Program-made: the position numbers and the translations under genes
Assembly (NCBI GenBank): GCA_903842795.1
Contig: CAIMNJ010000012.1
Location: 14,180 to 78,179 of the forward strand
Direction: 5' to 3'
DNA from: an uncultured bacterium
GTDB taxonomy: Bacteria; Patescibacteriota; Microgenomatia; UBA1400; PJMF01
DNA length: 64,000 bases
The notes under the pieces: model-generated
Seen by the model: only the letters and a program-made list of their open reading frames with translations
Told to the model about the DNA's origin: nothing
The model's database searches: none
Part shown: positions 2,916 through 40,869 of the stretch, piece after piece
Layout: each line of letters starts with the position of its first letter
How positions within the stretch are numbered: the stretch's first letter is position 1

Positions 2916-3383
2916 ATGACAGATCAAATTACAATTACTCAATCTGGATTCGAAGAGCTTCAACAAGAAGTTCTTGAGTTGAAAAACGTCAAAATTCCAA
3001 AAGTTATTGAGCGCATTGCCAATGCTAGAGAGCAAGGCGATCTTTCTGAGAATGCTGATTATCATAGTGCTAGAGACGAGCGAGATATTTTGCAGGCTCG
3101 TATCAATGAAATTGAAGAGATTTTGCTCAACGCAAAAGTGACTGCTTCCACTAAAACTGCCGGCATAGTAAATATCGGCTCGATTGTTACTTTGGAAATC
3201 GTTAGCAAAGGCAAGAAAATTACTTACCAAATGAGTGGTGAATATGAATCTAATCCAGCTGAAGGCAAAATTTCCGTCGAGTCTCCAGTGGGTAAAGCCT
3301 TGCTTAAGAAAAGCAAAGGTGAGGTCATAGAAGTGAAAACCCCGGCGGGCACCATCACTTACAAAATCTTAGAAGTCAAATAA
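2916..3383 (+). CDS. greA: Transcription elongation factor GreA
   Basis: 155 aa, MTDQITITQSGFEELQQEVLELKNVKIPKVIERIANAREQGDLSENADYHSARDE... This is the canonical GreA coiled-coil plus FKBP-like C-terminal domain. Confidence 0.9.
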   Translation: MTDQITITQSGFEELQQEVLELKNVKIPKVIERIANAREQGDLSENADYHSARDERDILQARINEIEEILLNAKVTASTKTAGIVNIGSIVTLEIVSKGKKITYQMSGEYESNPAEGKISVESPVGKALLKKSKGEVIEVKTPAGTITYKILEVK

Positions 3384-22321: not shown

Positions 22322-22397
22322 GGCCTCGTGGTGTAGTGGTTAACATGTCTCCCTGTCACGGAGAAGATCGTCGGTTCGATCCCGATCGAGGTCGCCA
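22322..22397 (+). tRNA. tRNA-Asp (anticodon GUC), CCA encoded
   Basis: GGCCTCG acceptor stem, D-arm GTGTAGTGGTTAACA, anticodon loop CTGTCAC, T-arm GTCGGTTCGATCCCGAT, and 3' CGAGGTC-G-CCA. The cloverleaf was folded manually. Confidence 0.9.
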
Positions 22398-22402
22398 TTA
22401 AA

Positions 22403-22428
22403 AGACGTCAGCAATGACGTCTTTTTTT
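22403..22428 (+). terminator. Rho-independent terminator after tRNA-Asp
   Basis: AGACGTCA-gcaa-TGACGTCT is an 8-bp perfect stem followed by TTTTTTT. Confidence 0.7.
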
Positions 22429-22441
22429 AGTCCTATAATAA

Positions 22442-22470
22442 TTGACTTTTTGCCATTTTTTTGCTATGAT
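22442..22470 (+). promoter_or_regulatory. Sigma-70-like promoter of the micropeptide transcription unit
   Basis: TTGACT, a 17-bp spacer, then TATGAT. The predicted TSS is near 22478, giving a ~100-nt leader with two GC-rich hairpins (CTGTC-ttcttc-GACAG at 22472-22487 and GGCTG...CAGCC at 22491-22509). Confidence 0.45.
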
Positions 22471-22576
22471 ACTGTCTTCTTCGACAGAGTGGCTGCGGGC
22501 TTTTCAGCCTGCAATTATTCCTAGAGGAAGCTCTTTCTACATGCTGGATCTTTGTAAAAAACTGCGAGGTGAAACT

Positions 22577-22741
22577 ATGCAAAATACAGATCCAAAAGAT
22601 CATTTCTGCCAGGAAGATGGTAATACTGGTCGCTGCATTGTATGCGGCGATAAAATGCCAACCCAACCAAAAGATCATTTCTGCCAGGAAGATGGTAATA
22701 CTGGTCGCTGCATTGTATGTGGCGATCCGATGCCCTCTTAA
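22577..22741 (+). CDS. 54-aa His/Cys-rich micropeptide made of two tandem 25-aa repeats (PKDHFCQEDGNTGRCIVCGD[K/P]MP..). It is a putative metal-binding (zinc-knuckle or rubredoxin-like) peptide
   Basis: The ATG at 22577 is preceded by GAGGTG with a 5-nt spacing. Its own promoter and terminator flank it. The peptide is MQNTDPKDHFCQEDGNTGRCIVCGDKMPTQPKDHFCQEDGNTGRCIVCGDPMPS, and each repeat has H-x-C-x8-C-x2-C-G. The track ORF at 22442 (TTG start) would add a non-repeat N-terminus, which is less likely given the promoter position. Confidence 0.55.
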   Translation: MQNTDPKDHFCQEDGNTGRCIVCGDKMPTQPKDHFCQEDGNTGRCIVCGDPMPS

Positions 22742-22760
22742 TCAACCCAACCAACATGTA
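22592..22760. repeat. 75-bp tandem repeat: two near-identical 60-bp cores plus a degenerate third start
   Basis: The cores at 22592-22651 and 22667-22726 differ at one base (tgc/tgt). The linker CAACCCAACCAA recurs at 22659-22670 and 22744-22755, followed by a degenerate ...agatgg, indicating a partial third unit beyond the stop. Confidence 0.8.
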
Positions 22761-22772
22761 GATGGAAAAGAA

Positions 22773-22797
22773 AGCTCAGGCTAGTCCTGGGCTTTTT
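22773..22797 (+). terminator. Rho-independent terminator after the micropeptide gene
   Basis: AGCTCAGG-ctagt-CCTGGGCT (8 bp including one G-U) followed by TTTTT. Confidence 0.55.
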
Positions 22798-22865
22798 CCT
22801 TTTATTAAGGTTTTTTCTTTCTTTTTTGATATATAATTTCCCTTAAAATACATTAAAAATATAAC

Positions 22866-22936
22866 GCGACCGTAGTTCAGCGGTAGAATGCCAGCTTCCC
22901 AAGCTTGAGGTGAGGGTTCGACTCCCTTCGGTCGCT
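22866..22936 (+). tRNA. tRNA-Gly (anticodon CCC), no encoded CCA
   Basis: The cloverleaf was folded by hand. It has GCGACCG acceptor, a GTTC/GAAT D-stem, anticodon loop TTCCCAA, T-arm GAGGG-TTCGACT-CCCTT, and 3' CGGTCGC-T. There is one C-U mismatch in the anticodon stem. Confidence 0.75.
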
Positions 22937-23072
22937 CAGAAAATATTTCAGCAAAGCTGAATATTTTTTGAGAGAGCGAGTGAAAGAAGACACAAGCAGA
23001 GGGTTCTGCCGCAAAGCGAAGCGTGGCTAATACCCGCAGGGTGGACTCCCTTCGGTCGCTCAGAAAATATTT
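22920..23072. repeat. 29-bp direct repeat that duplicates the tRNA-Gly 3' end plus 12 nt downstream
   Basis: GACTCCCTTCGGTCGCTCAGAAAATATTT occurs at 22920-22948 (tRNA-Gly T-arm/acceptor 3' half plus trailer) and again exactly at 23044-23072, immediately 5' of tRNA-Thr. The repeats flank a 95-bp, comparatively GC-rich spacer. Confidence 0.8.
22939..22969 (+). terminator. AU-rich hairpin plus T-run terminator after tRNA-Gly
   Basis: GAAAATATTTCAGC-aaa-GCTGAATATTTTTT, about a 12-bp stem with a 1-nt bulge, running into a T-tract. Confidence 0.45.
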
Positions 23073-23074
23073 AT

Positions 23075-23147
23075 GCCAAAGTAGCTCAGTTGGTAGAGCA
23101 ACGGTATCGTAAACCGTCGGTCGTGGGTTCGACTCCCACCTTTGGCT
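23075..23147 (+). tRNA. tRNA-Thr (anticodon CGU), no encoded CCA
   Basis: GCCAAAG acceptor, D-arm GCTCAGTTGGTAGAGC, anticodon stem ACGGT/ACCGT with loop ATCGTAA, T-arm GTGGG-TTCGACT-CCCAC, and 3' CTTTGGC-T. Confidence 0.9.
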
Positions 23148-23185
23148 CAAGTTAAGTAATAAGCAAATTGTGCTAATATAAAGTT

Positions 23186-31030: not shown

Positions 31031-32104
31031 ATGTCATCTAGTTCAAAAATTTTCTTGACTTTACTAACAATCCTATCTTTGATTGGTTTATTTTTTGTTT
31101 TTGAAGCTTCCACAGTTGAGAGCTTTAAGCTTTTTGGACATCAGTATTATTTTTTTAGGCAGCAAGCACTTTGGTTGGTTTTGTCTTTTGTTGTTATGTT
31201 TGTAGTAAGCAAATTTAAAGTGGGTTTTTTTGAAAAATATGCCTTGCCAATTTATTTTTTTGGTATTTTGCTTCTTTTTTTAACTTTAATTCCTGGAATT
31301 GGTTTGAAACTAAATGGGGCTCGTCGTTGGATTATTTTGCCTTTTGGAACATTGCAAACAGTTGAAGTTTTCAAATTTGCCATCATTAATTTTTATGCTT
31401 GGCTTTTGGCTAAAAAATTAAATATTATTAGTTTTTTATTTTTTCTTTTTTGGCCAGTGCTTTTAATTTTATTGCAACCAGACTTTGGTTCTTTGATGGT
31501 TTTGGTGGCCAGCAGCATTATCATGTATTTTTTAGCCGGAGGACCAATTAAATTTTTAACAATGCTGTTTGCTGGTGGTTTTTTGTTGGGGCTACTTATT
31601 GTGATATTTAGTCCCTATCGAAGAGACCGTTTGATGACTTTTCTAAATCCAGAAGAAAATGTGCAGGGCGAATCCTACCATGTACGCCAAATCACTTTGG
31701 CTTTGGGGGGTGGCTCTTGGTTTGGTCGCGGTATTGGTAATTCACAACAAAAATATTCTTATGTTCCAGAAGCTAGCAGTGATTCTATTTTTGCAATTGT
31801 GGCAGAAGAGATTGGTTTTATCGGTTCATTGTTTATTATTTTTTTGTTTGTTGGTTTTTTTGTTAGCGCAAATTTGATGGTGCGCAATAAAGTTTTGGAA
31901 AGCTATGACTATTTGCTTTTTTATGGAATTTTGAGTTGGATTGCCATCCAATTGCTTTTTAATTTGTCTGCCGTGGTGGTTGTTTTGCCTTTAGCTGGCA
32001 TGCCTTTGCCATTTTTTTCTCAAGGAGGTTCTTCTCTTTTGATGCTGTTTTTTGCAAGTGGGGTTTTACTCTCGATCACCTCACATGCTAAGATGAAGAA
32101 ATGA
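31031..32104 (+). CDS. ftsW: SEDS-family peptidoglycan glycosyltransferase FtsW
   Basis: 357 aa SEDS topology, …SDSIFAIVAEEIGFIGS…PLPFFSQGGSSLL…. It sits between mraY and murG. Confidence 0.8.
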   Translation: MSSSSKIFLTLLTILSLIGLFFVFEASTVESFKLFGHQYYFFRQQALWLVLSFVVMFVVSKFKVGFFEKYALPIYFFGILLLFLTLIPGIGLKLNGARRWIILPFGTLQTVEVFKFAIINFYAWLLAKKLNIISFLFFLFWPVLLILLQPDFGSLMVLVASSIIMYFLAGGPIKFLTMLFAGGFLLGLLIVIFSPYRRDRLMTFLNPEENVQGESYHVRQITLALGGGSWFGRGIGNSQQKYSYVPEASSDSIFAIVAEEIGFIGSLFIIFLFVGFFVSANLMVRNKVLESYDYLLFYGILSWIAIQLLFNLSAVVVVLPLAGMPLPFFSQGGSSLLMLFFASGVLLSITSHAKMKK

Positions 32105-33231
32105 GAATTCTGCTTAGTGGCGCTCACCTTACTCCCGCTTTAGCGATGATTGATTTTATTCAGGTCAATCATCCTGAACACGAATTATTTTTTGTTGGAC
32201 GTCTTTATAGCCAAGAAAAACTTGGCCAGAAAGCGGTTGAAAAAGATGAGGTTGGCAAAAGAGGAGTTAAATTTATTCCTTTTTCTGCTGCTAAATTTGT
32301 CAATTATTCTTTACTTAATAAAATTAGCACATTCTTCACTTTTCCAAGTACGGTTGCTCGCGCTCGCAGAATTTTGATTGAAGAAAAAATTGACCTTTTT
32401 CTTTCTTTCGGTTCTTATCTGGCTGTACCGTTTGCTTTAGCTGCTAAAAGCTTGGGAATTCCTGTAATAACTCATGAGCAAACAGTGGTAATGGGCAAAG
32501 CTAATCAGTTTATTTCTACTATCGCTGATAAAGTAGCTATTTCTTATCAGGAAACGAGTCGTTATTGCAAGAGAAAAGATTTAATTTTGACAGGCAATCC
32601 CGTAAGAGCAAGATTATTTGCCAAAGATTTAAAAAGACCAGAATGGTTATCTAAAGAAGCTAAAGGAATTTTATTGATTATGGGTGGCAATCAGGGTTCA
32701 TTCGTAATTAATGAAGTAATTAAAAATAATCTGAGTCAATTATTATCTAACTATTTTGTAATTCATCAATGCGGTCGAGCCAATAAGCTCAAAAATTCTT
32801 TGAAAGAGCTCGAAAATTTTAAAAAGATTTTGCCAAAATCCTTGCAGGAAAAATACTTTATTAAAGAATGGATTGAAGGTGAAGATCTATTTTGGATTTA
32901 TCAGCATAGTAAATTTGCTATTTCCAGATCTGGTGCAAATGCTGTTTTGGAATTAAGCTTGGCTCCATTGCCAGCAATCTTAATTCCTTTGCCAGGAACT
33001 TACCAAAATGAACAAATGGCTAATGCCATGGTAATGCAAAAAATTAATGGAGCTTTAATTTTGCCGCAAGAACATCTAAATACTAATACCCTTATTGATA
33101 GTGTTTCTCATTTGGAAAAAAATTATAAAGAAATGCGTTTGAGTTTGGCCAAGAATCAATCTTATCAGGATGCGAGCGCAAAACTTTATCAACTTATTTT
33201 GCATGTTTATAAAGAAAAAAAACGTTTGTGA
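32101..33231 (+). CDS. murG: UDP-GlcNAc:undecaprenyl-PP-MurNAc-pentapeptide GlcNAc transferase MurG
   Basis: 376 aa, MRILLSGAHLTPALAMIDFI… (a GT28 N-terminal domain) with a C-terminal …GGNQGS…SRSGANAVLEL… motif. Confidence 0.85.
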   Translation: MRILLSGAHLTPALAMIDFIQVNHPEHELFFVGRLYSQEKLGQKAVEKDEVGKRGVKFIPFSAAKFVNYSLLNKISTFFTFPSTVARARRILIEEKIDLFLSFGSYLAVPFALAAKSLGIPVITHEQTVVMGKANQFISTIADKVAISYQETSRYCKRKDLILTGNPVRARLFAKDLKRPEWLSKEAKGILLIMGGNQGSFVINEVIKNNLSQLLSNYFVIHQCGRANKLKNSLKELENFKKILPKSLQEKYFIKEWIEGEDLFWIYQHSKFAISRSGANAVLELSLAPLPAILIPLPGTYQNEQMANAMVMQKINGALILPQEHLNTNTLIDSVSHLEKNYKEMRLSLAKNQSYQDASAKLYQLILHVYKEKKRL

Positions 33232-33917
33232 AAATTTTGCGTTTAATAATTTTTTTTGTAGTTTTGGTTGTATTTTTTAATTTTGTTTTTGTTTTTAAAA
33301 AAATTGACTGTGAAGCTGAGGGGGTTTTAATTGAAAGTGGTGTTTGTGAATCAATTAATCAAAATTTTAAAGGCAGATCTTTATTTTTTACTGATTTAGA
33401 AAATGACGAAATTTGGAATGAATTGTTGATTTCTCAACAATATAGTCAGGTTTACCAATTCAAAAAAATAAAAAAATCTCTTTCTGGTGAAGTAAAATTA
33501 TTACTTTTAACTAAGTTGCCAGATTATAGGTTAATCATTGGTCAAGATCGTTATTTAATTAATCAAAACAACAAACTTAAGGACAACCAAGAGAAACTAC
33601 TTTTACCAAGCATTGAATATTTAGGTGATCAAAATATTAGAGAACATGAGTATCTACGTGATGATTATCATCAGAAATTTCTTGCTTTAAGCAAAGCGCT
33701 CAAAAAATATGATATAAACACCAATAAAATTGTTTGGCAAAGTGATCAAGAGATTCATCTTTTTCTTAAAGAAACGGAAGTAATTATTGATGATTTAAAA
33801 GATTTTGATTTTCAAATTGAGAGATTGTCTGTGGTTCTCAAAGAAGATAAACTACAAGCGGTTTTACCAAATAAAAAAGTTCTTGATATGCGCTTTAATT
33901 TGCCAGTGCTCAAATAG
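33228..33917 (+). CDS. ftsQ: FtsQ/DivIB-like cell division protein
   Basis: 229 aa with a GTG start overlapping the murG stop. It has an N-terminal TM helix then a periplasmic POTRA-like domain. The call rests mainly on its murG-ftsQ-ftsA-ftsZ position. Confidence 0.5.
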   Translation: MKILRLIIFFVVLVVFFNFVFVFKKIDCEAEGVLIESGVCESINQNFKGRSLFFTDLENDEIWNELLISQQYSQVYQFKKIKKSLSGEVKLLLLTKLPDYRLIIGQDRYLINQNNKLKDNQEKLLLPSIEYLGDQNIREHEYLRDDYHQKFLALSKALKKYDINTNKIVWQSDQEIHLFLKETEVIIDDLKDFDFQIERLSVVLKEDKLQAVLPNKKVLDMRFNLPVLK

Positions 33918-33977
33918 ATAGACATTGCTGGCAAAATTTTGTATAGTCTATATAAGATTTCTTGTGAAAATAAAACT

Positions 33978-35288
33978 ATGAGCAAAGAACAAATTATCTC
34001 CGCCATTGATTTAGGAAGTGACAAATGCACTACGCTGATTTCCAGAGTGACTGAAGCTGGTAAACTGCAGGTTTTGGGTTTTTCCGTAGTCCCTTCCAGA
34101 GGAATTAAGCGTAGTATGATCATCGATTTGGAGCAAGCGCTTAATACCGTCAGTCAGGGTTTGGACGCGGCTGAGCGCATGGCAGGTTTTAGTGTCAAAA
34201 GCACCGTGGTCTCAATTTCTGGAGTACATATCAAATATAAAAATTCTAAAGGCGTAGTGGCTGTTGCTTCACCTACTCAAGATATCGCCCAAAGTGATGT
34301 TGATCGCGTCATTGAGGCAGCTAGAGCTGTTTCAATGCCACCAGACAAAGAAATCATTCATGTGATTCCTAAGGATTTTAAAGTTGATTCTCAAGATGGA
34401 GTCAAAGATCCAGTTGGTATGAAGGGAGTTCGTTTGGAGGCTGAAGCCCACATCGTAACATGTCTTAGCACAGCGATGCGCAATTTGGAAAAATGCATTG
34501 GTGACATGGGAATCAAGGTGGACACTTTTGTTTTTTCTGCTTTGGCTGCCTCACAAATTGGTTTAACAGAAACAGAAAAAGAATTAGGCGCCGTTTTGGT
34601 TGATATCGGTGCCGGCACCACCAGTATTGTTGCTTATGTTGAGGGAGCTATGGAATTTTCGGCCGTTTTGCCGATTGGTGCCAAGCATATCACTCAAGAC
34701 ATTGCTCTTGGCTGTCGTATTCCTATGGATGATGCGGAAAAACTCAAGCTTTATTTGACCGATAATGGCGTTGATGACATGCGCCCTCATCCAGGAGAAT
34801 CAAAGGTAGATTTCACTAAGCGTAAGAAAAAATTAGATGCAATTGATCCATCAAAAGTTGGCATTGCTCACGAAGATCAGCTTTCAAAAAAAACTCTTAT
34901 CAACGGCATCATGGAGCCTCGTTCTAGAGAAATTTTCCGTTTAGTGATGCAAGAGTTAGATAAAGCAGATTTGCTTTCTGGCAATAAAGTTCCAGCTGGT
35001 CTTATTTTGACGGGTGGTGGAGCAATGACCGCTTCTTTGGTCGAAGTCGCTAAAAAAGTTAGTAATTTGCCAGTGCGTGTGGCTGCTCCAGAAGAAATTG
35101 AGGGTTTAACTGAAGATATTAAGAAGCCAAATTTTGCTGTAGCCGTTGGTTTACTTGAGTATGCTCTCAAACAAGGCAATGTCACCACTGTTACTGAGGA
35201 TTTCAATTGGCAAGCTCTTTTGCCAAAAGATTTGTTTAAAAATATTATTGAAAAAATCAAAAAAACTAGCAAGTCAATCTTGCCTTGA
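33978..35288 (+). CDS. ftsA: Cell division protein FtsA
   Basis: MSKEQIISAIDLGSDKCTTLISRV… has actin-like ATPase motifs. The track ORF starts 13 codons earlier, at 33939. Confidence 0.85.
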   Translation: MSKEQIISAIDLGSDKCTTLISRVTEAGKLQVLGFSVVPSRGIKRSMIIDLEQALNTVSQGLDAAERMAGFSVKSTVVSISGVHIKYKNSKGVVAVASPTQDIAQSDVDRVIEAARAVSMPPDKEIIHVIPKDFKVDSQDGVKDPVGMKGVRLEAEAHIVTCLSTAMRNLEKCIGDMGIKVDTFVFSALAASQIGLTETEKELGAVLVDIGAGTTSIVAYVEGAMEFSAVLPIGAKHITQDIALGCRIPMDDAEKLKLYLTDNGVDDMRPHPGESKVDFTKRKKKLDAIDPSKVGIAHEDQLSKKTLINGIMEPRSREIFRLVMQELDKADLLSGNKVPAGLILTGGGAMTASLVEVAKKVSNLPVRVAAPEEIEGLTEDIKKPNFAVAVGLLEYALKQGNVTTVTEDFNWQALLPKDLFKNIIEKIKKTSKSILP

Positions 35289-35349
35289 TTTTTATGTTGC
35301 AGTTTGATATGTTTCTATAAGCATAAGCCTGCCAAGAAAGCCGTCACAT

Positions 35350-36660
35350 ATGGGACTCGTTAAACCTTCAAATACAACCTTTGCCAAAATCAAAGTAATC
35401 GGTGTAGGTGGTGGTGGTAGTAATGCTGTCAATTCCATGGTTTTATCAAGACAAATTAATGGTGTGGAATTTATCACTGTTAATACTGATGCTCAGGCTT
35501 TACTCACTTCCAAAGCCGAAACCAAAATGCAAATTGGTAGTAATTTTACTCGCGGTCTTGGAGCTGGTGCTGATCCAGAAGTGGGTCGCACTGCTGCTGA
35601 AGAGAGTCGTGAAAAACTCAAAGATTTATTGTTTGATACCGACATGGTTTTTATTACTGCTGGTATGGGCGGTGGTACTGGCACTGGAGCTGCCCCCATC
35701 ATCGCTGAAATTGCCAAAGAAGCTGGCGCTTTGACGGTGGCTGTGGTCACCAAGCCATTTGCTTTTGAAGGTATCCGCCGTATGCAAACTGCTGATGAGG
35801 GCATTGAAGCTCTTGGCGACACAGTTGATACTTTGATTGTGATCCCCAATCAGCGCTTGCTCGAGGTAGTTGATAAGAAAATGACTTTTATTGATGCTTT
35901 CCGTTTGGCAGATAATGTTCTTGGTCAAGGCGTCAAAGGAATTTCCGATCTCATCACTGTTCCCGGTATGATCAACGTTGACTTTGCTGACGTCAAAACC
36001 ATTATGGTTGACTCTGGTTCTTCTCTGATGGGCATTGGTGAAGCCTCAGGTGAAGATCGTGCAGTGGTGGCAGCTCGTATGGCTGTTTCTTCTCCTCTTC
36101 TCGAGGTTTCGATTGATGGTGCCAAAGGCATTCTATACAACATTACTGGTGGTCCAGATATGACTATGAGCGAAGTCTCAGATGCTTCGGCTGTGATTGC
36201 TGACAGTGCTGATCCAGACGCCAACATCATTTTTGGTGCCACCATCGATGAAAATATGGGTTCTAAGATTAAGATTAGTGTGATTGCCACTGGTTTTGGT
36301 GATAATTATGCTGGTTCTGGTCCAAGAGCAATGTTTGGTTCTTATGGCAGGGAATCTCGTCGTAAGATGACTGGCCCAACTGCTACTTACAAGAAGCAGG
36401 AGGAAGAAGTCAGAATTGAGCCAGAAGAAGAAAAAATCGACCGTACTCCAAGTGGTTATACTCAACCACAAATTGTGACTGCCAAACCCAAAAAAGAAGA
36501 AGAACAAGAAAGTCATAATCCTTTTGTGCGCTCTGCTCTTTTCAACTTGAGAAAAAAAGATGAACAAAAGCGCGAAGATAAAAGTGACAAAAAAGAAGAT
36601 ATTGATAGCGATGATGAGTTTGCAGAGTTTGATGTGCCAGCTTTTTTGAGAGATAGATAA
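35350..36660 (+). CDS. ftsZ: Cell division GTPase FtsZ
   Basis: [13 protein letters not shown] (tubulin signature GGGTGTG further on: [12 protein letters not shown]) with an acidic C-terminal tail ending …[16 protein letters not shown]. Confidence 0.95.
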
Positions 36661-36674
36661 AAAAGTGGTACAAT
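36646..36674 (+). promoter_or_regulatory. Strong sigma-70 promoter overlapping the ftsZ stop, driving the ileS leader
   Basis: TTGAGA, a 17-bp spacer, then TGG-TACAAT (extended -10). The predicted TSS is near 36681. Confidence 0.5.
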
Positions 36675-36681
36675 ATCACAA

Positions 36682-36888
36682 GTTTACAAAACCGTTCGAG
36701 CCATAATCAATGGTGAGGTGCCTGAAGAAACTTTTCATAAAAGTTGTAGACCAGGTCGGGATTAGCCCGTAATCGCTTGAATTAAGTAAAGATTTCGTAA
36801 GAAGTCTTAAAAAGCGGCTGGTACCTTTATCTTAAATAAGATAAGCCTGCTTAGAAACGAAAAGTTCGTTTTTAAGCAGGCTTTTTTG
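36682..36888 (+). promoter_or_regulatory. Candidate T-box-like (Ile) transcription attenuation leader for ileS
   Basis: A long stem with base GUUCGAGC (36694-36701) pairing GCUUGAAU (36775-36782) carries AUC (36772-36774) on its 3' side. A1 AAGCGG/CUGCUU flanks a bulge C-UGGUACC (36819-36825), followed by A2 hairpin UUAUCUU-aaau-AAGAUAA. The A1 3' strand is contained in the 5' arm of the terminator, so the two folds are mutually exclusive. Confidence 0.45.
36843..36888 (+). terminator. Intrinsic terminator (attenuator) 50 nt upstream of the ileS start
   Basis: AAGCCTGCTTA-(gaaacgaaaagttcgtttt)-TAAGCAGGCTT followed by TTTTTT is an 11-bp perfect stem. Confidence 0.65.
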
Positions 36889-36937
36889 GTATTATGAAGG
36901 TATAGAAAAACATACAACATCTTTTGTAAAGGAAAAA

Positions 36938-39772
36938 ATGAAAATCAAAGATTTTAGACAAGTGCCAAATTTTCCAGAATTAGAAAAAGAAATTTTGGAG
37001 TTTTGGGACAGAGATCAGACTTTTCAAAAATCAGTAGATCAAAGAAGCGAAGATCAATCCTTCTCTTTTTATGATGGTCCACCATTTGCCACTGGTTTGC
37101 CACACTATGGCCACTTAATGCAATCTATCATCAAAGATTTGATTCCTCGTTATCAAACCATGCAGGGCAAAAAAGTCCGTCGTGTTTGGGGTTGGGACTG
37201 TCATGGTTTGCCAGTTGAAAATATCATTGAAAAAGAACTCAAACTAGATAGCAAAAAAGACATTGAGGGTTATGGAGTGGATAAGTTTAATGAAGCCTGT
37301 CGCCAGACGGTTTTGACCTATGCAGAAGAGTGGAAAAAGACCATTCGCCGTATTGGTCGCTGGATTGATATGGACCACGCTTACAAAACTATGGATAAGG
37401 AATTCATGGAAACAGTTTGGTGGGTTTTTCGTCAGTTGTGGGATAAAGGCTTGATCTATAAGAGTCATAAATCCATGCACATTTGTCCACGCTGCGGCAC
37501 ACCACTTTCCAATTTTGAGGTCACTCAAGGTTACAAGGATGTCAAAGATATTTCTGTTTTTGTAAAATTTGAATTACAAAATGCTGCCTCAGCGTTAGGT
37601 GTTGATGTGGATGAGCCAATTTATGCTGTGGCTTGGACCACCACTCCTTGGACTTTACCAGGCAATGTTTTGTTGGCGGTTGGTAAAGAATTGGAGTATG
37701 CCTTGGTTAGAATTGTTGGGGAAAAAGGCCTATTAGTAGTAGCTAAAACTCGTTTAGCTGAAGTAATTGCTGACAAGGATTTTGAGTTGGTGGGAGGAGA
37801 TTTCTTGGGTGCTAAATTGGTGGGTCTAACTTACCAGCCTGTTTTCCCATATTTTGCTGATTGGGCCAAGGCTTTTCGTGTGGTTGCAGGAGATTTTGTC
37901 AGCACAGAAGAAGGTACCGGCATTGTCCATATCGCTCCAGCTTTTGGTGAAGATGATTATAAAACTGGTCAAGCTGAAGGCATTGAGCTTTTGCAACATG
38001 TTGGCATGGACGGCCGTTTTATCAAGGAAGTGATTGATTTTGCTGATATGGAAGTCAAGCCAAAGGATAATCCTCAGGTTACAGATATTGAAATTATTAA
38101 ATATTTAGCTGCTTCTGGGGCACTTTTCGCCAAGAAGAAAATTGAACACAGTTATCCACATTGTTGGCGTTGCGATACTCCCTTGCTTAATTACGCTACT
38201 GATAGTTGGTATGTCAAAGTGAGCGCTTTCAAGGATCAATTGCTGGCTAATAACGAGAAAATTAATTGGCAGCCAGACCATATTAAACATGGTCGTTTTG
38301 GCAAATGGTTGGAGGGTGCCAGAGATTGGGCTATTTCTCGCAATCGTTATTGGGGCACTCCTTTACCAATTTGGGAAAGTGAAAATGGAGACTTTATTTG
38401 TGTTGGTTCTATTGAAGAATTAGAAAAACTTTCTGGTCAAAAAGTGAGTGATTTACACAAACACATTGTTGATAAAATCACTTTTGAAAAAGATGGCCAA
38501 ACTTATCGTCATATCCCAGAGGTTTTAGATTGCTGGTTTGAATCTGGCTCGATGCCTTATGGCGAATTGCATTATCCATTCAATAATCAAGAAGCTTTTA
38601 AGCGTTCTTTCCCAGCCGATTTTATTTCTGAGGGTCAAGATCAAACGCGTGGATGGTTTTATACCTTGCACGTTCTAGCCACTGCTCTCACTCTCGGCAG
38701 TGAAAAAGAAACCAGTTCTTTTAAAAATGTGATGTGCACTGGCCTAATTATGGCTGAAGATGGCAAAAAGATGAGCAAGCGCCTCAAAAATTATCCAGAG
38801 CCAGGCGCAATTTTGGAAAAGTATGGTGCAGATGCCTTGCGCCTTTATATGATGTCCTCACCTGCAGTCAAGGCAGAGACACTGAATTTTGCTGAAAAAG
38901 ATGTGGCCAATTTGCGTCGCCGCGTTTTTGTAATCTGGTGGAATGTTTTGGCTTTTTATAAATCATTTGCTCAGCAAGAAGCCGGTTTCTTCGATCTTGC
39001 TGCCGGCGAAATGCCAAAGGACTTATTGGATCGTTGGATTTTGAGTCGTTTGCAAAGTGTCATTAGAGAGCTCAAGCAAAATCTCGATGCTTATGATGTG
39101 ATGAAGGCTAGTCGTTTATTAGCACCATTCATTGATGAGCTTTCTACCTGGTATTTACGTTTGAGTCGCGAACGTCTCAAGATAGAAGACAACCAAGAAG
39201 TTAGTCAAGTTTTTGCCACTGTAATTTATGAATTAGCCAAGGCTTTTGCTCCGGTGGTGCCATTTTTTACTGAATTGATTCATCATAATATGATTGATGA
39301 AAATAGCTCTATTCATTTGCAGGTCTTCCCAGAATATCAAGCTAAGTTTTTTGATTCAAAATTAGAAGCAGCAATGACTACTGTTCGTAAAATTGTTGAA
39401 CTTGGTCATAGTTTACGTAGAGATAAACAACTTAAGGCTCGTCAACCTTTAGCTAGTCTCAAAGTAAATGGTTATGCTGATTTGGAATACAAAAATGAAT
39501 TAGAAGTATTGCTACTAATGGAGCTTAATGTTAAAAAAGTTGAATGGCTAGATCAATCTGGAGATTTAAAAGTAGATTACGATTTTGTTTTGACTGATGA
39601 GTTACGAGCAGAAGGTGAAGCAAGAGAGATTATTCGCTCTATTCAAGATCAGCGTAAAGAAGCGATGCTAGATATCAATGAAGTTATTGAGATAGAGCTA
39701 GCTTCTTGGCCAGAGGCTTTTACTAAAGAAATCGAAGAAAAAACCAATACAAAATTAATTAAAAAAGTTTAA
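36938..39772 (+). CDS. ileS: Isoleucine--tRNA ligase (type 2, eukaryote/archaea-like)
   Basis: 944 aa with …FYDGPPFATGLPHYGHL… (HIGH region of the IleS type) and KMSKRLKN (KMSKS). Confidence 0.9.
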   Translation: MKIKDFRQVPNFPELEKEILEFWDRDQTFQKSVDQRSEDQSFSFYDGPPFATGLPHYGHLMQSIIKDLIPRYQTMQGKKVRRVWGWDCHGLPVENIIEKELKLDSKKDIEGYGVDKFNEACRQTVLTYAEEWKKTIRRIGRWIDMDHAYKTMDKEFMETVWWVFRQLWDKGLIYKSHKSMHICPRCGTPLSNFEVTQGYKDVKDISVFVKFELQNAASALGVDVDEPIYAVAWTTTPWTLPGNVLLAVGKELEYALVRIVGEKGLLVVAKTRLAEVIADKDFELVGGDFLGAKLVGLTYQPVFPYFADWAKAFRVVAGDFVSTEEGTGIVHIAPAFGEDDYKTGQAEGIELLQHVGMDGRFIKEVIDFADMEVKPKDNPQVTDIEIIKYLAASGALFAKKKIEHSYPHCWRCDTPLLNYATDSWYVKVSAFKDQLLANNEKINWQPDHIKHGRFGKWLEGARDWAISRNRYWGTPLPIWESENGDFICVGSIEELEKLSGQKVSDLHKHIVDKITFEKDGQTYRHIPEVLDCWFESGSMPYGELHYPFNNQEAFKRSFPADFISEGQDQTRGWFYTLHVLATALTLGSEKETSSFKNVMCTGLIMAEDGKKMSKRLKNYPEPGAILEKYGADALRLYMMSSPAVKAETLNFAEKDVANLRRRVFVIWWNVLAFYKSFAQQEAGFFDLAAGEMPKDLLDRWILSRLQSVIRELKQNLDAYDVMKASRLLAPFIDELSTWYLRLSRERLKIEDNQEVSQVFATVIYELAKAFAPVVPFFTELIHHNMIDENSSIHLQVFPEYQAKFFDSKLEAAMTTVRKIVELGHSLRRDKQLKARQPLASLKVNGYADLEYKNELEVLLLMELNVKKVEWLDQSGDLKVDYDFVLTDELRAEGEAREIIRSIQDQRKEAMLDINEVIEIELASWPEAFTKEIEEKTNTKLIKKV

Positions 39773-40869
39773 TGCGTAAGTATTTTTTGTTGGGCATTTT
39801 ATTTCTTTTTACTGTTTTGTCGTTGACGACTATTCGTAGTATTGTGCCAGAATTGCTTTATAAACAAGGAATTTCTTTCATTCTGGCATTTATGGTCTTT
39901 TTAGTTGCTTGGAATTTGCCATTTGAGTTGCATCTGAGTTTGAGTAAGTGGTTGTATTTTGGCCTAATTTTTTTACTTTTTTTCCTTTTACTTTATGGCA
40001 AAATTACCAGAGGTATTTCTGCTTGGTTGGTTTTACCATTTGGTTTTAAATTTCAGCCTTCTCAATTGGCTGTGCCGGTCACAGCTTTATATTTAAGTAG
40101 TTTTTTTGGTAAAGAAAGAAATTTTACTTGGTTTTTGTTAATAAAAACTTTATTTATTATTGCTTTGCCAGCAATTTTAATTTTGCTAGAACCAGATTTT
40201 GGAACCGTTCTAGTCTTTGCAGCAAGCATGATGGTTTTTCTGTTTTTTAATCGTTTGAACTGGCAACAGTTTTTATCTTTATTTTTGCTAGGTTTTCTTG
40301 GCTTATTGAGTTTGTGGTTTTTTGTTTTCAAAGATTATCAGAAACAGCGCTTGATGAGTTTTCTGCATTTACAACGCACGAGTGTTGTCGCCATCAAGGA
40401 ATCAACAAAAGAAAGCAACAGTGCTTATAATGCTAGGCAAGCTCTTATCGCTGTTGGTAGTGGCAAGTTTTTTGGGAGAGGCATTGGTCAAGGGGTTCAA
40501 TCGCATTTGCGTTTTTTGCCAGAAAGACAAACTGATTTTATTTTTGCTTCATTTTCTGAAGAATGGGGCTTTGTGGGTGCTTTTTTTCTCCTCACGCTTT
40601 ATTTCCTTTTGCTTTTTTTTCTTTTGTATGTGGCACATGGTATTGAGGATTTCCAAAAAAGAATTTATTTGCTTGCAATTTTTTTGATGTTCTTGGTACA
40701 AATTTTTATCAACATTGGTATGAATTTGGCGATTTTGCCAATTACTGGCATTACTTTACCATTTTTGTCCTATGGCGGCAGTAGCGTAATTTCTTTATTT
40801 TTTGCACTTGGAGTGGCAGCTTCAATTATTAATAATTTTAGAAAAAAAGCTCTTCACAGTTTCTATTAA
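39772..40869 (+). CDS. rodA: SEDS-family protein (RodA/FtsW paralogue)
   Basis: 365 aa and 10 TM helices, with …TDFIFASFSEEWGFVGA…ITGITLPFLSYGGSSVISL… conserved SEDS motifs. It is the second SEDS gene in the window. Confidence 0.7.
   Translation: MRKYFLLGILFLFTVLSLTTIRSIVPELLYKQGISFILAFMVFLVAWNLPFELHLSLSKWLYFGLIFLLFFLLLYGKITRGISAWLVLPFGFKFQPSQLAVPVTALYLSSFFGKERNFTWFLLIKTLFIIALPAILILLEPDFGTVLVFAASMMVFLFFNRLNWQQFLSLFLLGFLGLLSLWFFVFKDYQKQRLMSFLHLQRTSVVAIKESTKESNSAYNARQALIAVGSGKFFGRGIGQGVQSHLRFLPERQTDFIFASFSEEWGFVGAFFLLTLYFLLLFFLLYVAHGIEDFQKRIYLLAIFLMFLVQIFINIGMNLAILPITGITLPFLSYGGSSVISLFFALGVAASIINNFRKKALHSFY

What the first reader, a model, noticed from the sequence alone, without database searches (positions are those of the whole stretch)
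36646..36937. T-box-like riboswitch candidate (Ile specifier) controlling ileS
A strong promoter (TTGAGA-17-TGGTACAAT) overlapping the ftsZ stop launches a ~255-nt untranslated leader. An intrinsic terminator with an 11-bp stem plus U6 ends it 50 nt before the ileS ATG. Upstream of the terminator is a canonical antiterminator architecture. Helix AAGCGG/CUGCUU surrounds a bulge containing UGGU-ACC (complementary to a tRNA-Ile ACCA 3' end), then comes a small hairpin, and the helix 3' strand lies inside the terminator 5' arm. A long 5' stem (GUUCGAGC...GCUUGAAU) places an AUC triplet where a specifier codon would sit. The T-box core matches the consensus only partially (GGCUGGUACC against GGGUGGNACCGCG), so this may be a divergent variant in a lineage not known for T-boxes.
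Basis: partly seen in the sequence, partly recalled or inferred. Interest (0 to 1): 0.55.

Follow-up and report, generated by a model that had tools for sequence, protein, structure and literature searches.

The report
Short-stem T-box riboswitch controlling ileS
The untranslated leader in front of the isoleucyl-tRNA synthetase gene of this candidate-phyla-radiation bacterium is a genuine tRNA-sensing T-box riboswitch, but of an unusual build: it pairs the very short tRNA-decoding stem known from actinobacterial translation-controlling T-boxes with a transcription terminator, a combination the field has regarded as atypical.

Summary
The specifier is AUC 36706-36708 (+A36709) in the terminal loop of a 5-bp hairpin on a K-turn-like base. 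Rfam RF00230 misses the element. A covariance model built only from high-GC, actinobacterial-type short-Stem-I ileS leaders finds it as the single hit in 64 kb (50.4 bits, E~1e-12). About 30 low-GC relatives, mostly Patescibacteria MAGs, show strong covariation (93-96% of cells paired against 29-47% in slid controls). Related leaders carry GUC before ValRS and GAC or AAC before AspRS. Most likely mechanism: uncharged tRNA-Ile binds the AUC and the UGGU bulge, stabilises a weak antiterminator (-10 against -27 kcal/mol) and allows read-through into ileS. The new points are the short Stem I combined with a terminator, the CPR lineage, and invisibility to the standard model. Nothing was tested biochemically.

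The parts
36646..36674 (+). Sigma-70-type promoter: -35 TTGAGA (36646-51), 17-nt spacer, extended -10 TGgTACAAT (36666-74). It overlaps the ftsZ stop codon (36658-60). Inferred start of transcription is near 36681.
   Evidence: 10 of 12 matches, TG present. In 23 of 31 related leaders a comparable promoter ends 16-31 nt (median 25) before the Stem I hairpin, with three outliers at 40-57 nt.
36691..36719 (+). Ultrashort Stem I. Closing C-stem ACC (36691-93) / GGU (36717-19); K-turn-like bulge GUUC (36694-97) with tandem GA (36698-99) opposite GA (36715-16); hairpin GCCAU (36700-04) / AUGGU (36710-14); terminal loop AAUCA (36705-09).
   Evidence: C-stem plus Stem I: 9 pairs, 98.8% of cells paired, 8 pairs with changes on both sides. 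Same in the model-made alignment. RNAalifold recovers both from an unfitted alignment. The K-turn is inferred from the GA/GA arrangement only.
36706..36709 (+). Specifier codon AUC (36706-08, Ile) followed by the conserved purine A36709. Predicted to pair with anticodon GAU of tRNA-Ile.
   Evidence: AUC occupies this loop position in 28 of 28 ileS leaders. Related leaders have GUC before ValRS and GAC or AAC before AspRS-type genes.
36720..36756 (+). Stem II. Proximal helix GCCUG (36720-24) / CAGGU (36752-56); S-turn-type internal loop AAGAAA (36725-30) / UAGAC (36747-51); distal hairpin 36731-46.
   Evidence: Proximal helix: 5 pairs, 98% paired, all 5 with changes on both sides. AGAA and UAGA are near-invariant. 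The distal helix covaries.
36757..36779 (+). Stem IIA/B pseudoknot.
   Evidence: IIA is invariant in 29-30 of 30 sequences. IIB: two fixed pairs (G-C, C-G) plus three partly covarying pairs, 67% paired overall. F-box equivalence follows review PMC7583486.
36780..36811 (+). Conserved purine linker AAUUAAG (36780-86), then Stem III AAGAUUUC (36789-96) / GAAGUCUU (36801-08), then an A-rich joiner.
   Evidence: AAUUAAG or a near variant occurs in most leaders. Stem III is present in only about a quarter of low-GC leaders and covaries where present. It corresponds to the RRRNG-Stem III-AA motif quoted in PMC7778990.
36812..36852 (+). Discriminator (antiterminator). A1 AAGCGGC (36812-18) / GCC-U-GCUU (36845-52); 7-nt T-box bulge UGGUACC (36819-25), whose UGGU should pair with the tRNA 3' end ACCA; A2 hairpin UUAUCUU-AAAU-AAGAUAA (36827-44).
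   Evidence: UGGUACC is invariant in all 28 ileS leaders except L158, which has UGGAACC. A1 top four pairs: 95.8% paired, and the pair flanking the bulge is AU 10, GC 9, CG 8, UG 2, UA 1. A2 base pairs are 98.9% paired and all covary. Energy is -9.4 to -10.1 kcal/mol.
36843..36887 (+). Intrinsic terminator: 19-pair hairpin 36843-36883 with a U run at 36882-36887. Its 5' arm contains the whole A1 3' strand, so it excludes the antiterminator.
   Evidence: 19 pairs, 7 G-C; -26.8 kcal/mol. A hairpin of -10 kcal/mol or stronger followed by a U-run is found in 20 of 28 low-GC ileS leaders and in none of the high-GC ones.
36938..39772 (+). Regulated gene ileS (isoleucine--tRNA ligase, 944 aa). Shine-Dalgarno AAGGA at 36929-33.
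   Evidence: TIGR00392 ileS 916.5 bits; Pfam tRNA-synt_1 and Anticodon_1.

Best explanation
Window 36685-36887 is a T-box riboswitch that controls ileS by transcription attenuation. Transcription starts about 7 nt after the -10 element (near 36681). The 5' half folds into a compact decoding module: an ultrashort Stem I on a K-turn-like base that presents AUC-A in its terminal loop, docked against the S-turn of Stem II and organised by the IIA/B pseudoknot. tRNA-Ile (anticodon GAU) pairs with the AUC. If the tRNA is uncharged, its 3' ACCA end pairs with UGGU of the 7-nt bulge and stabilises the otherwise weak A1/A2 antiterminator, which holds 36845-36852 away from the terminator, so RNA polymerase reads through into ileS. 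If the tRNA is charged or absent, the much more stable terminator forms and transcription stops at the U run, 50 nt before the ATG. Shown here: the sequence elements, their conservation and covariation, the mutual exclusion and energy gap of the two 3' structures, homology to the short-Stem-I ileS T-box class, and agreement between specifier and downstream gene across amino acids. [quoted passage not shown]
For: (1) A covariance model built only from 38 high-GC short-Stem-I ileS leaders gives one hit in the 64-kb window, 36685-36830, 50.4 bits, E about 1e-12, full-length. It hits every related low-GC leader and none of 7 IleS loci that lack the motif. (2) Covariation: curated 30-sequence core alignment, 92.6% of cells paired against 29-47% in slid controls, 24 of 29 pairs changed on both sides, 0 of 500 shuffles as high. 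Model-made alignment, 95.9%, 22 of 26 pairs, score 0.628 against 0.097 or less. RNAalifold on an unfitted alignment recovers the C-stem, Stem I, Stem II, IIA and A2. (3) The terminal-loop triplet matches the downstream synthetase: AUC-IleRS, GUC-ValRS, GAC or AAC-AspRS. The bulge base N is U for Ile and Val and C for most Asp and Asn leaders, matching the A73 and G73 discriminators known for those tRNAs (my own knowledge). (4) The 7-nt bulge register is the one that covaries. (5) The antiterminator (-10 kcal/mol) and terminator (-27 kcal/mol) share 36843-36852. (6) Sister leaders L026 and L111 lack a terminator, and their A1 3' strand is complementary to the Shine-Dalgarno sequence, so the same switch strand is wired to a different output. 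(7) The leader stays with ileS when ftsZ is not adjacent. (8) Relatives L160, L084 and L172 score significantly on RF00230 below its gathering score (66.7, 41.2 and 37.7 bits).
Against: RF00230 does not detect the window's leader even at E<=10. No tRNA-Ile gene is present in the window or in the fetched loci, so the anticodon and discriminator of the partner tRNA could not be checked. The elbow-binding distal Stem I platform, described as essential for transcriptional T-boxes (PMC7583486), is absent, so co-transcriptional sensing here needs some compensating feature that I have not identified. IIB is only 67% paired across the family and forms just 3 Watson-Crick pairs in the window. The curated alignment was partly fitted to the structure: the C5, II5 and A2/A1 registers were chosen to maximise pairing. 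A TGnTATTAT extended -10-like site follows the terminator (36887-36895), so some terminator-independent ileS transcription is not excluded. There is no experimental evidence of any kind.
Confidence: 0.87

Rival explanations
1. The element is a real T-box aptamer, but the main control point is translation or RNA stability, as in actinobacterial ileS T-boxes. On this view the hairpin plus U run is not an efficient terminator in this organism, or it is bypassed by a promoter lying between it and the ATG.
For: The decoding module belongs to the class so far tied to translational control. Two sister leaders, L026 and L111, appear to sequester the Shine-Dalgarno sequence instead. TGgTATTAT at 36887-36895 resembles an extended -10. 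Intrinsic termination has not been studied in Patescibacteria (my own knowledge).
Against: The window's hairpin is a textbook terminator: 19 pairs, -26.8 kcal/mol, U6. Its 5' arm is exactly the A1 3' strand, and the same arrangement recurs in L007, L020, L024, L054, L083 and L160. The window's Shine-Dalgarno (36929-33) is 45 nt beyond the switch region and has no conserved partner. The -10-like site is not conserved and has no -35. No high-GC translational leader has a hairpin plus U run.
Confidence: 0.08
2. The terminator is simply the end of the ftsA-ftsZ operon, ileS is expressed independently, and the T-box-like features are incidental or a decayed remnant.
For: The terminator follows ftsZ by about 225 nt, and RF00230 does not recognise the leader.
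Against: A strong promoter sits between ftsZ and the leader. The leader and terminator accompany ileS in 23 loci where ftsZ is absent or 0.4-2.4 kb away. Covariation in every helix shows selection on the structure. The model hit has E about 1e-12.
Confidence: 0.02
3. One reading: a long Stem I closed by GUUCGAGC/GCUUGAAU, with the specifier at AUC 36772-36774.
For: 8 of 8 complementarity in the window. The triplets at that position are often Ile codons (AUC, AUA or AUU in 21 of 31 leaders).
Against: The stem averages about 4 of 8 pairs in relatives. The triplet is ACA, AAC, AAA or CCC in ten leaders, and it is no Val codon in the three GUC/valS leaders. The segment is loop L3 of the pseudoknot (F-box). 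RNAalifold and the covariance model both place Stem I at 36691-36719. The MFE folds of the window leader alone do not contain the long stem either.
Confidence: 0.01

Closest known systems
Actinobacterial ileS T-box riboswitches with ultrashort Stem I (Mycobacterium smegmatis and M. tuberculosis, Nocardia farcinica; Sherwood et al. 2015; structures 6UFG and 6UFM as cited in PMC7583486)
   Same: Same regulated gene and same AUC-A specifier in the terminal loop of a 4-5-bp hairpin on a GA/GA base. Same 5-nt spacing to Stem II, same S-turn strands (AAGAA / UAGA), same CGG...CCGU.A pseudoknot/F-box, and the same UGGUACC bulge. A covariance model built only from high-GC leaders of this type finds the window's leader at 50.4 bits.
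   Different: The output is an intrinsic terminator rather than Shine-Dalgarno sequestration: no high-GC leader has a hairpin plus U run, against 20 of 28 low-GC leaders. The lineage is Patescibacteria, not Actinobacteria. The T-box core is GGC-UGGUACC-UUUAUC rather than GGG-UGGUACC-GCGG. Stem III is optional in the family. That the high-GC contigs are actinobacterial is my inference from GC content and architecture, not a checked taxonomy.
Canonical transcriptional T-box leaders (Rfam RF00230; for example Firmicutes ileS, tyrS, valS)
   Same: Same logic and same 3' half: antiterminator A1, 7-nt UGGN bulge, A2, competing with a terminator that contains the A1 3' strand. Same Stem II, S-turn and IIA/B pseudoknot. 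The specifier matches the regulated synthetase. Canonical examples recovered in the same scan (L154 ileS, 114.7 bits; L192 and L105 valS, 75-79 bits) share the central blocks.
   Different: There is no long Stem I: no specifier internal loop, no AG bulge or distal-loop platform for the tRNA elbow, and only about 10-20 nt between the transcription start and the hairpin. RF00230 gives no hit for the window at E<=10.
glyQS-type minimal T-boxes
   Same: Also a reduced T-box architecture acting at transcription (PMC7583486).
   Different: glyQS leaders keep the long Stem I with its elbow contact and lack Stem II and IIA/B. This leader does the opposite: it keeps Stem II and IIA/B and lacks the distal Stem I.

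Membership tests
T-box riboswitch (general) | A specifier trinucleotide that matches the amino acid of the regulated gene, followed by a purine | tested here: met
   AUC-A at 36706-36709 before IleRS. AUC in 28 of 28 ileS leaders. GUC before ValRS, GAC or AAC before AspRS-type genes.
T-box riboswitch (general) | A 7-nt T-box bulge 5'-UGGNACC-3' between helices A1 and A2 | tested here: met
   UGGUACC 36819-25. The A1 pair flanking the bulge covaries (AU 10, GC 9, CG 8, UG 2, UA 1) and A2 covaries. The alternative register is not supported.
T-box riboswitch (general) | N of UGGN complementary to the discriminator base of the cognate tRNA | not testable with these tools
   No tRNA-Ile gene in the window or fetched loci. 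Indirect support: N is U for Ile and Val leaders and C for most Asp and Asn leaders, matching the A73 and G73 discriminators known from E. coli and B. subtilis (my own knowledge).
T-box riboswitch (general) | An antiterminator (or antisequestrator) mutually exclusive with a terminator (or sequestrator) that shares the A1 3' strand | tested here: met
   36845-52 lies in both structures; -10 against -27 kcal/mol. Terminator confirmed. Same layout in relatives; L026 and L111 use the Shine-Dalgarno sequence instead.
T-box riboswitch (general) | Stem II with an S-turn, and a Stem IIA/B pseudoknot containing the F-box | tested here: met
   Stem II: 5 of 5 pairs covary. AGAA and UAGA near-invariant. 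IIA invariant. IIB partly covarying, 67% paired. The S-turn fold itself is inferred.
T-box riboswitch (general) | A K-turn (GA motif) at the base of Stem I | tested here: inconclusive
   The window has a C-stem, a 4-nt bulge and tandem GA/GA. The C-stem covaries. The first G of the 5' GA is variable in the low-GC family (G 17, U 6, A 5 and C 1 of 30, plus L017 with UC at these positions). The fold cannot be tested here.
T-box riboswitch (general) | Binding of uncharged cognate tRNA that increases downstream expression | not testable with these tools
   Needs biochemistry or genetics.
Canonical class I T-box (Rfam RF00230) | A long Stem I with a specifier internal loop and a distal platform (AG bulge plus distal loop) that binds the tRNA elbow | tested here: not met
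   Stem I is a 5-bp hairpin with the specifier in its terminal loop. The promoter ends 25 nt before it. The structure is supported.
Canonical class I T-box (Rfam RF00230) | A score at or above the RF00230 gathering score (93 bits) | tested here: not met
   No hit at gathering or at E<=10. None of 17 related genome loci hit at gathering. Relatives L160, L084 and L172 hit below gathering.
Short-Stem-I ('class II', actinobacterial ileS) T-box | An ultrashort Stem I with a terminal-loop specifier, together with a Stem II and IIA/B decoding module | tested here: met
   Same element order and spacing as the high-GC leaders. Model R1, built from those only, hits 36685-36830 at 50.4 bits, E about 1e-12, full length.
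Short-Stem-I ('class II', actinobacterial ileS) T-box | An expression platform that sequesters the Shine-Dalgarno sequence (translational control) | tested here: not met
   The window has an intrinsic terminator 50 nt before the ATG and no partner for its Shine-Dalgarno sequence. No high-GC leader has a terminator.

The most novel reading that the evidence does not exclude
Patescibacteria (CPR) carry a previously unrecognised subclass of T-box riboswitch. It acts at transcription but lacks the tRNA-elbow-binding half of Stem I altogether, and it controls at least ileS, valS and aspS. That would show that the Stem II/pseudoknot 'anticodon pincer' alone is enough for co-transcriptional tRNA sensing. 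It would give these host-dependent, biosynthetically poor bacteria a direct read-out of tRNA charging. It would also suggest that the short-Stem-I design is old and widespread rather than an actinobacterial specialisation tied to translational control.
Probability: 0.45. Interest if true: 0.68.

Novelty: new variant of a known kind. Interest (0 to 1): 0.55.

Why it matters
T-box specialists currently link Stem I length to the mode of control. The long Stem I with its elbow contact is described as essential for transcriptional T-boxes because tRNA must bind before the polymerase reaches the terminator, and ultrashort Stem I is described as a feature of translational, mostly actinobacterial, ileS leaders (PMC7583486). 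This family supplies dozens of natural leaders with an ultrashort Stem I followed by a strong terminator, plus close relatives that use Shine-Dalgarno sequestration. The kinetic argument can therefore be tested directly on natural sequences. The family also shows that standard annotation (RF00230 at its gathering score; TBDB's class II model was run only on Actinobacteria and on truncated RF00230 hits) misses T-boxes in a whole radiation of bacteria whose gene regulation has been called virtually unknown (PMC11665869). Finally, it points to tRNA-charging surveillance of ileS, valS and aspS in organisms that depend on hosts for amino acids.

Tried and rejected
Rfam at gathering on the window and on 34 loci, and at permissive E-values. 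There was no RF00230 hit for the window, and the weak hits (SpF19, Srn266 and others) are all driven by the terminator hairpin and were discarded. A plain MAFFT alignment of 18 full leaders (A1) was too gappy for pair counting, so I replaced it with an anchor-based core alignment (A2) and a model-made alignment (A7). My first automatic A2/A1 parse picked over-long helices for L020, L023, L054 and L070 and was redone with a stiffer loop penalty. L084 was left out of A2 because its A2/A1 could not be parsed. RNAalifold on the high-GC set paired the invariant specifier loop GCCAUC with GGUGGU of the T-box; I rejected that as a structure because nothing in it varies. RNAalifold's alternative A1 register in the window clade was rejected. 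The tRNA-Ile search in the window and 32 loci found nothing. Sherwood et al. 2015 and Suddala & Zhang 2019 (IUBMB Life) are not held, so I could not check whether short-Stem-I leaders with terminators were already noted there. Literature searches for T-box plus CPR or Patescibacteria returned nothing. A regex scan of the window for a second leader found only chance 10-mers. My U-run finder stops at U runs inside the terminator stem for the window's own clade, so for those leaders I rely.
Full report
WHAT IS THERE. The window comes from a Patescibacteria (CPR) genome. The closest IleS loci (77-87% amino-acid identity) are MAGs named Candidatus Pacebacteria or Microgenomatus, and the next tier (45-56%) is mostly 'Patescibacteria group', Peregrinibacteria, Gracilibacteria and Paceibacterota. 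The local gene order is murG, an unassigned ORF, ftsA, ftsZ (35350-36660), the leader, ileS (36938-39772), then an ftsW/rodA-family gene.

There is a promoter, TTGAGA-17-TGgTACAAT, at 36646-36674 over the ftsZ stop. There is a 19-pair hairpin at 36843-36883 with a U6 run ending 50 nt before the ATG. Upstream of that, a helix encloses UGGUACC and a small hairpin. The leader folds far better than shuffled versions (z = -5.85).

FIRST TEST, RFAM. RF00230 (T-box) does not hit the window at its gathering score, and not even at E<=10 on the 361-nt region. It also misses all 17 related genome loci at gathering. This is weak evidence, because the gathering score is 93 bits. In a control run only one clearly canonical ileS leader (L154, 114.7 bits) passed. 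Canonical valS leaders scored 75-79 bits. Three short-hairpin low-GC relatives of the window's leader scored significantly below gathering: L160 66.7 bits (E = 3e-12), L084 41.2 and L172 37.7.

CONSERVATION. The sequence upstream of ileS in 17 of 80 genome loci, all of the CPR type, shares a fixed series of blocks with the window, and none of the Lentisphaerae or Verrucomicrobia loci do. In order, the blocks are:
- a short hairpin whose stem sequence varies freely but whose terminal loop always contains AUCA;
- GAG;
- a helix flanking AAGAAA ... UAGA;
- CGG-N-CCGU.A..GC;
- AAUUAAG;
- sometimes a hairpin;
- G.UGGUACC followed by a hairpin;
- a terminator.

I then scanned metagenomes with a DNA pattern made only of the central blocks (TAGA-N6-CGGG-N4-5-CCCGT-N24-54-TGGNACC), which contains no specifier, no ileS sequence and no fixed base at the N of the bulge. 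It returned 120 loci:
- a large high-GC set (0.6-0.76) with IleS 100-170 nt downstream, the hairpin (U)CCGG-CCAUCA-CCGG(G) at the same spacing, and no terminator. I take these to be the known actinobacterial translational ileS T-boxes (an inference from GC content and architecture);
- canonical long-Stem-I leaders;
- a dozen more low-GC ileS leaders of the window's type;
- low- and mid-GC leaders of the same short design with other loop triplets.

STRUCTURE AND COVARIATION. An anchor-based parse of 31 short-hairpin leaders gave a 99-column core alignment of 30 of them (A2). On the T-box architecture, including the IIA/B pseudoknot, 92.6% of cells form standard pairs, against 29-47% when partners are slid by 1-3 columns. 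Of 29 pairs, 24 change on both sides. The covariation score is 0.75 against 0.07-0.18, and no shuffle of 500 reaches any observed measure.

By helix:
- C-stem plus Stem I: 98.8% paired, 8 of 9 pairs with changes on both sides.
- Stem II proximal helix: 98% paired, 5 of 5.
- IIA: invariant.
- IIB: 67% paired, with two fixed and three partly covarying pairs.
- A1: 95.8% paired.
- A2: 98.9% paired.

Parts of that alignment were fitted to the structure, so I added two less dependent checks. First, RNAalifold on an unfitted MAFFT alignment of eight real sequences recovers the C-stem, Stem I, both parts of Stem II, IIA and A2. Its different register for A1 performs no better than shuffles on the diverse set. 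The T-box register has a flanking pair that switches among AU 10, GC 9, CG 8, UG 2 and UA 1 and is never unpaired. Second, an alignment of 29 low-GC leaders made by a covariance model trained on a different clade gives 95.9% paired, 22 of 26 pairs changed on both sides, and a score of 0.628 against 0.097 or less.

MEMBERSHIP. I built model R1 from 38 high-GC short-Stem-I ileS leaders only. Its structure holds in them (97.5% paired). In the 64-kb window, both strands, R1 gives exactly one hit at E<=1: 36685-36830, 50.4 bits, E about 1e-12 (the calibration is rough), covering all 152 model positions. The printed alignment reproduces my parse element by element. R1 also hits every low-GC leader, and none of seven IleS loci that lack the motif. 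The window's element is therefore homologous to the short-Stem-I ileS T-box class.

THE SPECIFIER. That stem is perfect in the window but averages about 4 of 8 pairs in 30 relatives. The triplet varies (AUC, AUA, ACA, AAC, AAA, CCC), and the segment is loop L3 of the pseudoknot, which is the F-box region.

The conserved AUC is at 36706-36708, followed by A36709, in the terminal loop of hairpin 36700-36714. It is present in 28 of 28 ileS leaders. An independent check supports it. In leaders of the same design, a GUC loop precedes ValRS (L172, L182), GAC precedes AspRS or the AspRS type that also charges tRNA-Asn (L089, L161, L168), and AAC precedes AspRS-type genes (L188, L155). The bulge base is U in the Ile and Val leaders and C in most Asp and Asn leaders. 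That is what the A73 and G73 discriminators of those tRNAs require (my own knowledge of tRNA identity elements).

STEM I REALLY IS SHORT. In 23 of 31 leaders a good promoter ends 16-31 nt (median 25; three outliers at 40-57) before the hairpin. In the window it ends 25 nt before. That leaves about 10-20 nt of RNA ahead of the hairpin, enough for the 3-bp closing stem and the bulge plus GA of a K-turn-like motif. It is not enough for a long Stem I with an elbow-binding platform.

THE SWITCH. In the window the antiterminator (36812-36852) is worth -9.4 to -10.1 kcal/mol and the terminator (36843-36883) -26.8. They share 36843-36852. Termination is therefore the default, and the antiterminator needs outside stabilisation, which is the T-box logic.

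In L007, L020, L024, L054, L083 and L160 the terminator starts at the first nucleotide of the A1 3' strand. By my scan, 20 of 28 low-GC ileS leaders have a hairpin of -10 kcal/mol or stronger followed by a U run, and none of the high-GC leaders do. L026 and L111 lack a U run, and their A1 3' strand (CCCUCU, CCCUUU) is complementary to the Shine-Dalgarno sequence just ahead of the start codon. The same switch strand is thus wired to two different outputs within one group, which supports its role as the switching element.

RIVALS. The 'ftsZ terminator' idea fails. A strong promoter separates ftsZ from the leader. ftsZ abuts the leader only in the window, L001, L022 and L004. It is 0.4-2.4 kb away in seven loci and absent from the available upstream DNA in sixteen. 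A promoter in the 50-nt gap is not found by the scan. The window does have TGgTATTAT at 36887-36895, an extended -10 look-alike with no -35, but it is not conserved and the gaps in relatives are only about 32-37 nt. A weak constitutive start there is not excluded. A purely translational mode is unlikely for the window, because its Shine-Dalgarno sequence lies 45 nt beyond the switch and has no conserved partner.

COMPARISON WITH WHAT IS KNOWN. The 3' half is a standard T-box discriminator with a divergent core: GGC-UGGUACC-UUUAUC against the consensus GGG-UGGNACC-GCG. The 5' half is the 'ultrashort Stem I plus Stem II S-turn plus IIA/B pseudoknot' decoding module described for actinobacterial ileS T-boxes, where it regulates translation.

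[quoted passage not shown] TBDB ran its class II model only on Actinobacteria and on truncated RF00230 hits (PMC7778990). Full-text searches for T-box with Candidate Phyla Radiation or Patescibacteria found nothing. A 2024 perspective calls regulation in these bacteria virtually unknown and mentions riboswitches only as a possible engineering tool (PMC11665869).

I could not read Sherwood et al. 2015, so prior mention of short-Stem-I leaders with terminators cannot be ruled out.

VERDICT. This is a genuine T-box riboswitch for ileS. The element is a new variant of a known kind: a short-Stem-I decoding module joined to an intrinsic terminator, in CPR bacteria, invisible to RF00230, with sister leaders on valS and aspS. 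All mechanistic steps that involve the tRNA are inferred.

Noticed in passing
L172, L182, L084 (GUC); L089, L161, L168, L169, L175 (GAC); L188, L155, L145, L180 (AAC): Low- and mid-GC metagenomic leaders with the same short-hairpin design but other loop triplets, followed by terminators. Where checked, the downstream gene matches the triplet: ValRS after GUC, AspRS or the AspRS type that also charges tRNA-Asn after GAC and AAC. AAC (Asn) specifiers in front of AspRS-type genes suggest control by tRNA-Asn in organisms that make Asn-tRNA indirectly.
   Followed up: partly
L026:2946-2997 and L111 (oriented 3271-3345): Two ileS leaders of the CPR group have no terminator. Their A1 3' strand (CCCUCU, CCCUUU) is complementary to the Shine-Dalgarno sequence a few nt before the start codon, so they look like translational variants among transcriptional relatives.
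   Followed up: partly
window 36887-36895: TGgTATTAT directly after the terminator U run resembles an extended -10 element with no -35. It is not conserved, but relatives share (A)GUA after the U run. GGUAUU could also pair with the palindromic bulge GGUACC.
   Followed up: partly
L081-L200 high-GC leaders (alignment A5): The invariant specifier-loop sequence GCCAUC is complementary to GGUGGU of the T-box, and RNAalifold pairs them. Nothing varies, so it cannot be judged. It could be coincidence, since both blocks are fixed for tRNA binding, or a tRNA-free self-contact.
   Followed up: no
L005, L007, L008, L023, L191 (between Stem I and Stem II): A 13-20-nt extra hairpin is inserted between the 3' GA of the K-turn-like motif and the C-stem 3' strand, turning the base of Stem I into a three-way junction.
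   Followed up: no
L160, L111: Stem II has almost no distal helix (5 nt between the two S-turn strands), so the S-turn loop is nearly terminal. These are the most compact decoding modules seen here.
   Followed up: no
L006, L008, L023, L109, L173; L191: In this subgroup the terminators are only 5-6 bp and overlap just the last 1-3 nt of an extended A1. In L191 the extended A1 helix itself directly precedes the U run. How the switch works in these leaders is unclear.
   Followed up: no
L020:1815-1909: A DUF3800-V RNA (RF02964, 62.8 bits against a gathering score of 37.4) lies about 0.9 kb upstream of the ileS leader in a Paceibacterota MAG.
   Followed up: no
L001, L004, L006, L026 (record titles): MAG records titled 'uncultured Pseudomonadales' or 'uncultured Gammaproteobacteria' encode CPR-type IleS (up to 83% identical to the window's) and the CPR-type leader. 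The names look like mislabels.
   Followed up: no
window 36938-39772: The IleS scores 727 bits on the MupA (mupirocin-resistant IleRS) model, below its cut-off. It carries a DUF5915 C-terminal region, and its nearest non-CPR relatives are Lentisphaerae and Victivallales (45-49%). It looks like the type-2, eukaryote-like IleRS.
   Followed up: no
window 32101-40869: ileS is embedded in the cell-division cluster (murG, unassigned ORF 33228-33917, ftsA, ftsZ, ileS, ftsW/rodA-family gene whose start overlaps the ileS stop). ftsZ-ileS linkage, sometimes with an inserted gene, recurs in 11 of 27 related loci.
   Followed up: partly
window 22322-23148: A cluster of three tRNA genes (Asp-GUC, Gly-CCC, Thr-CGU). 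There is no tRNA-Ile in the window.
   Followed up: no
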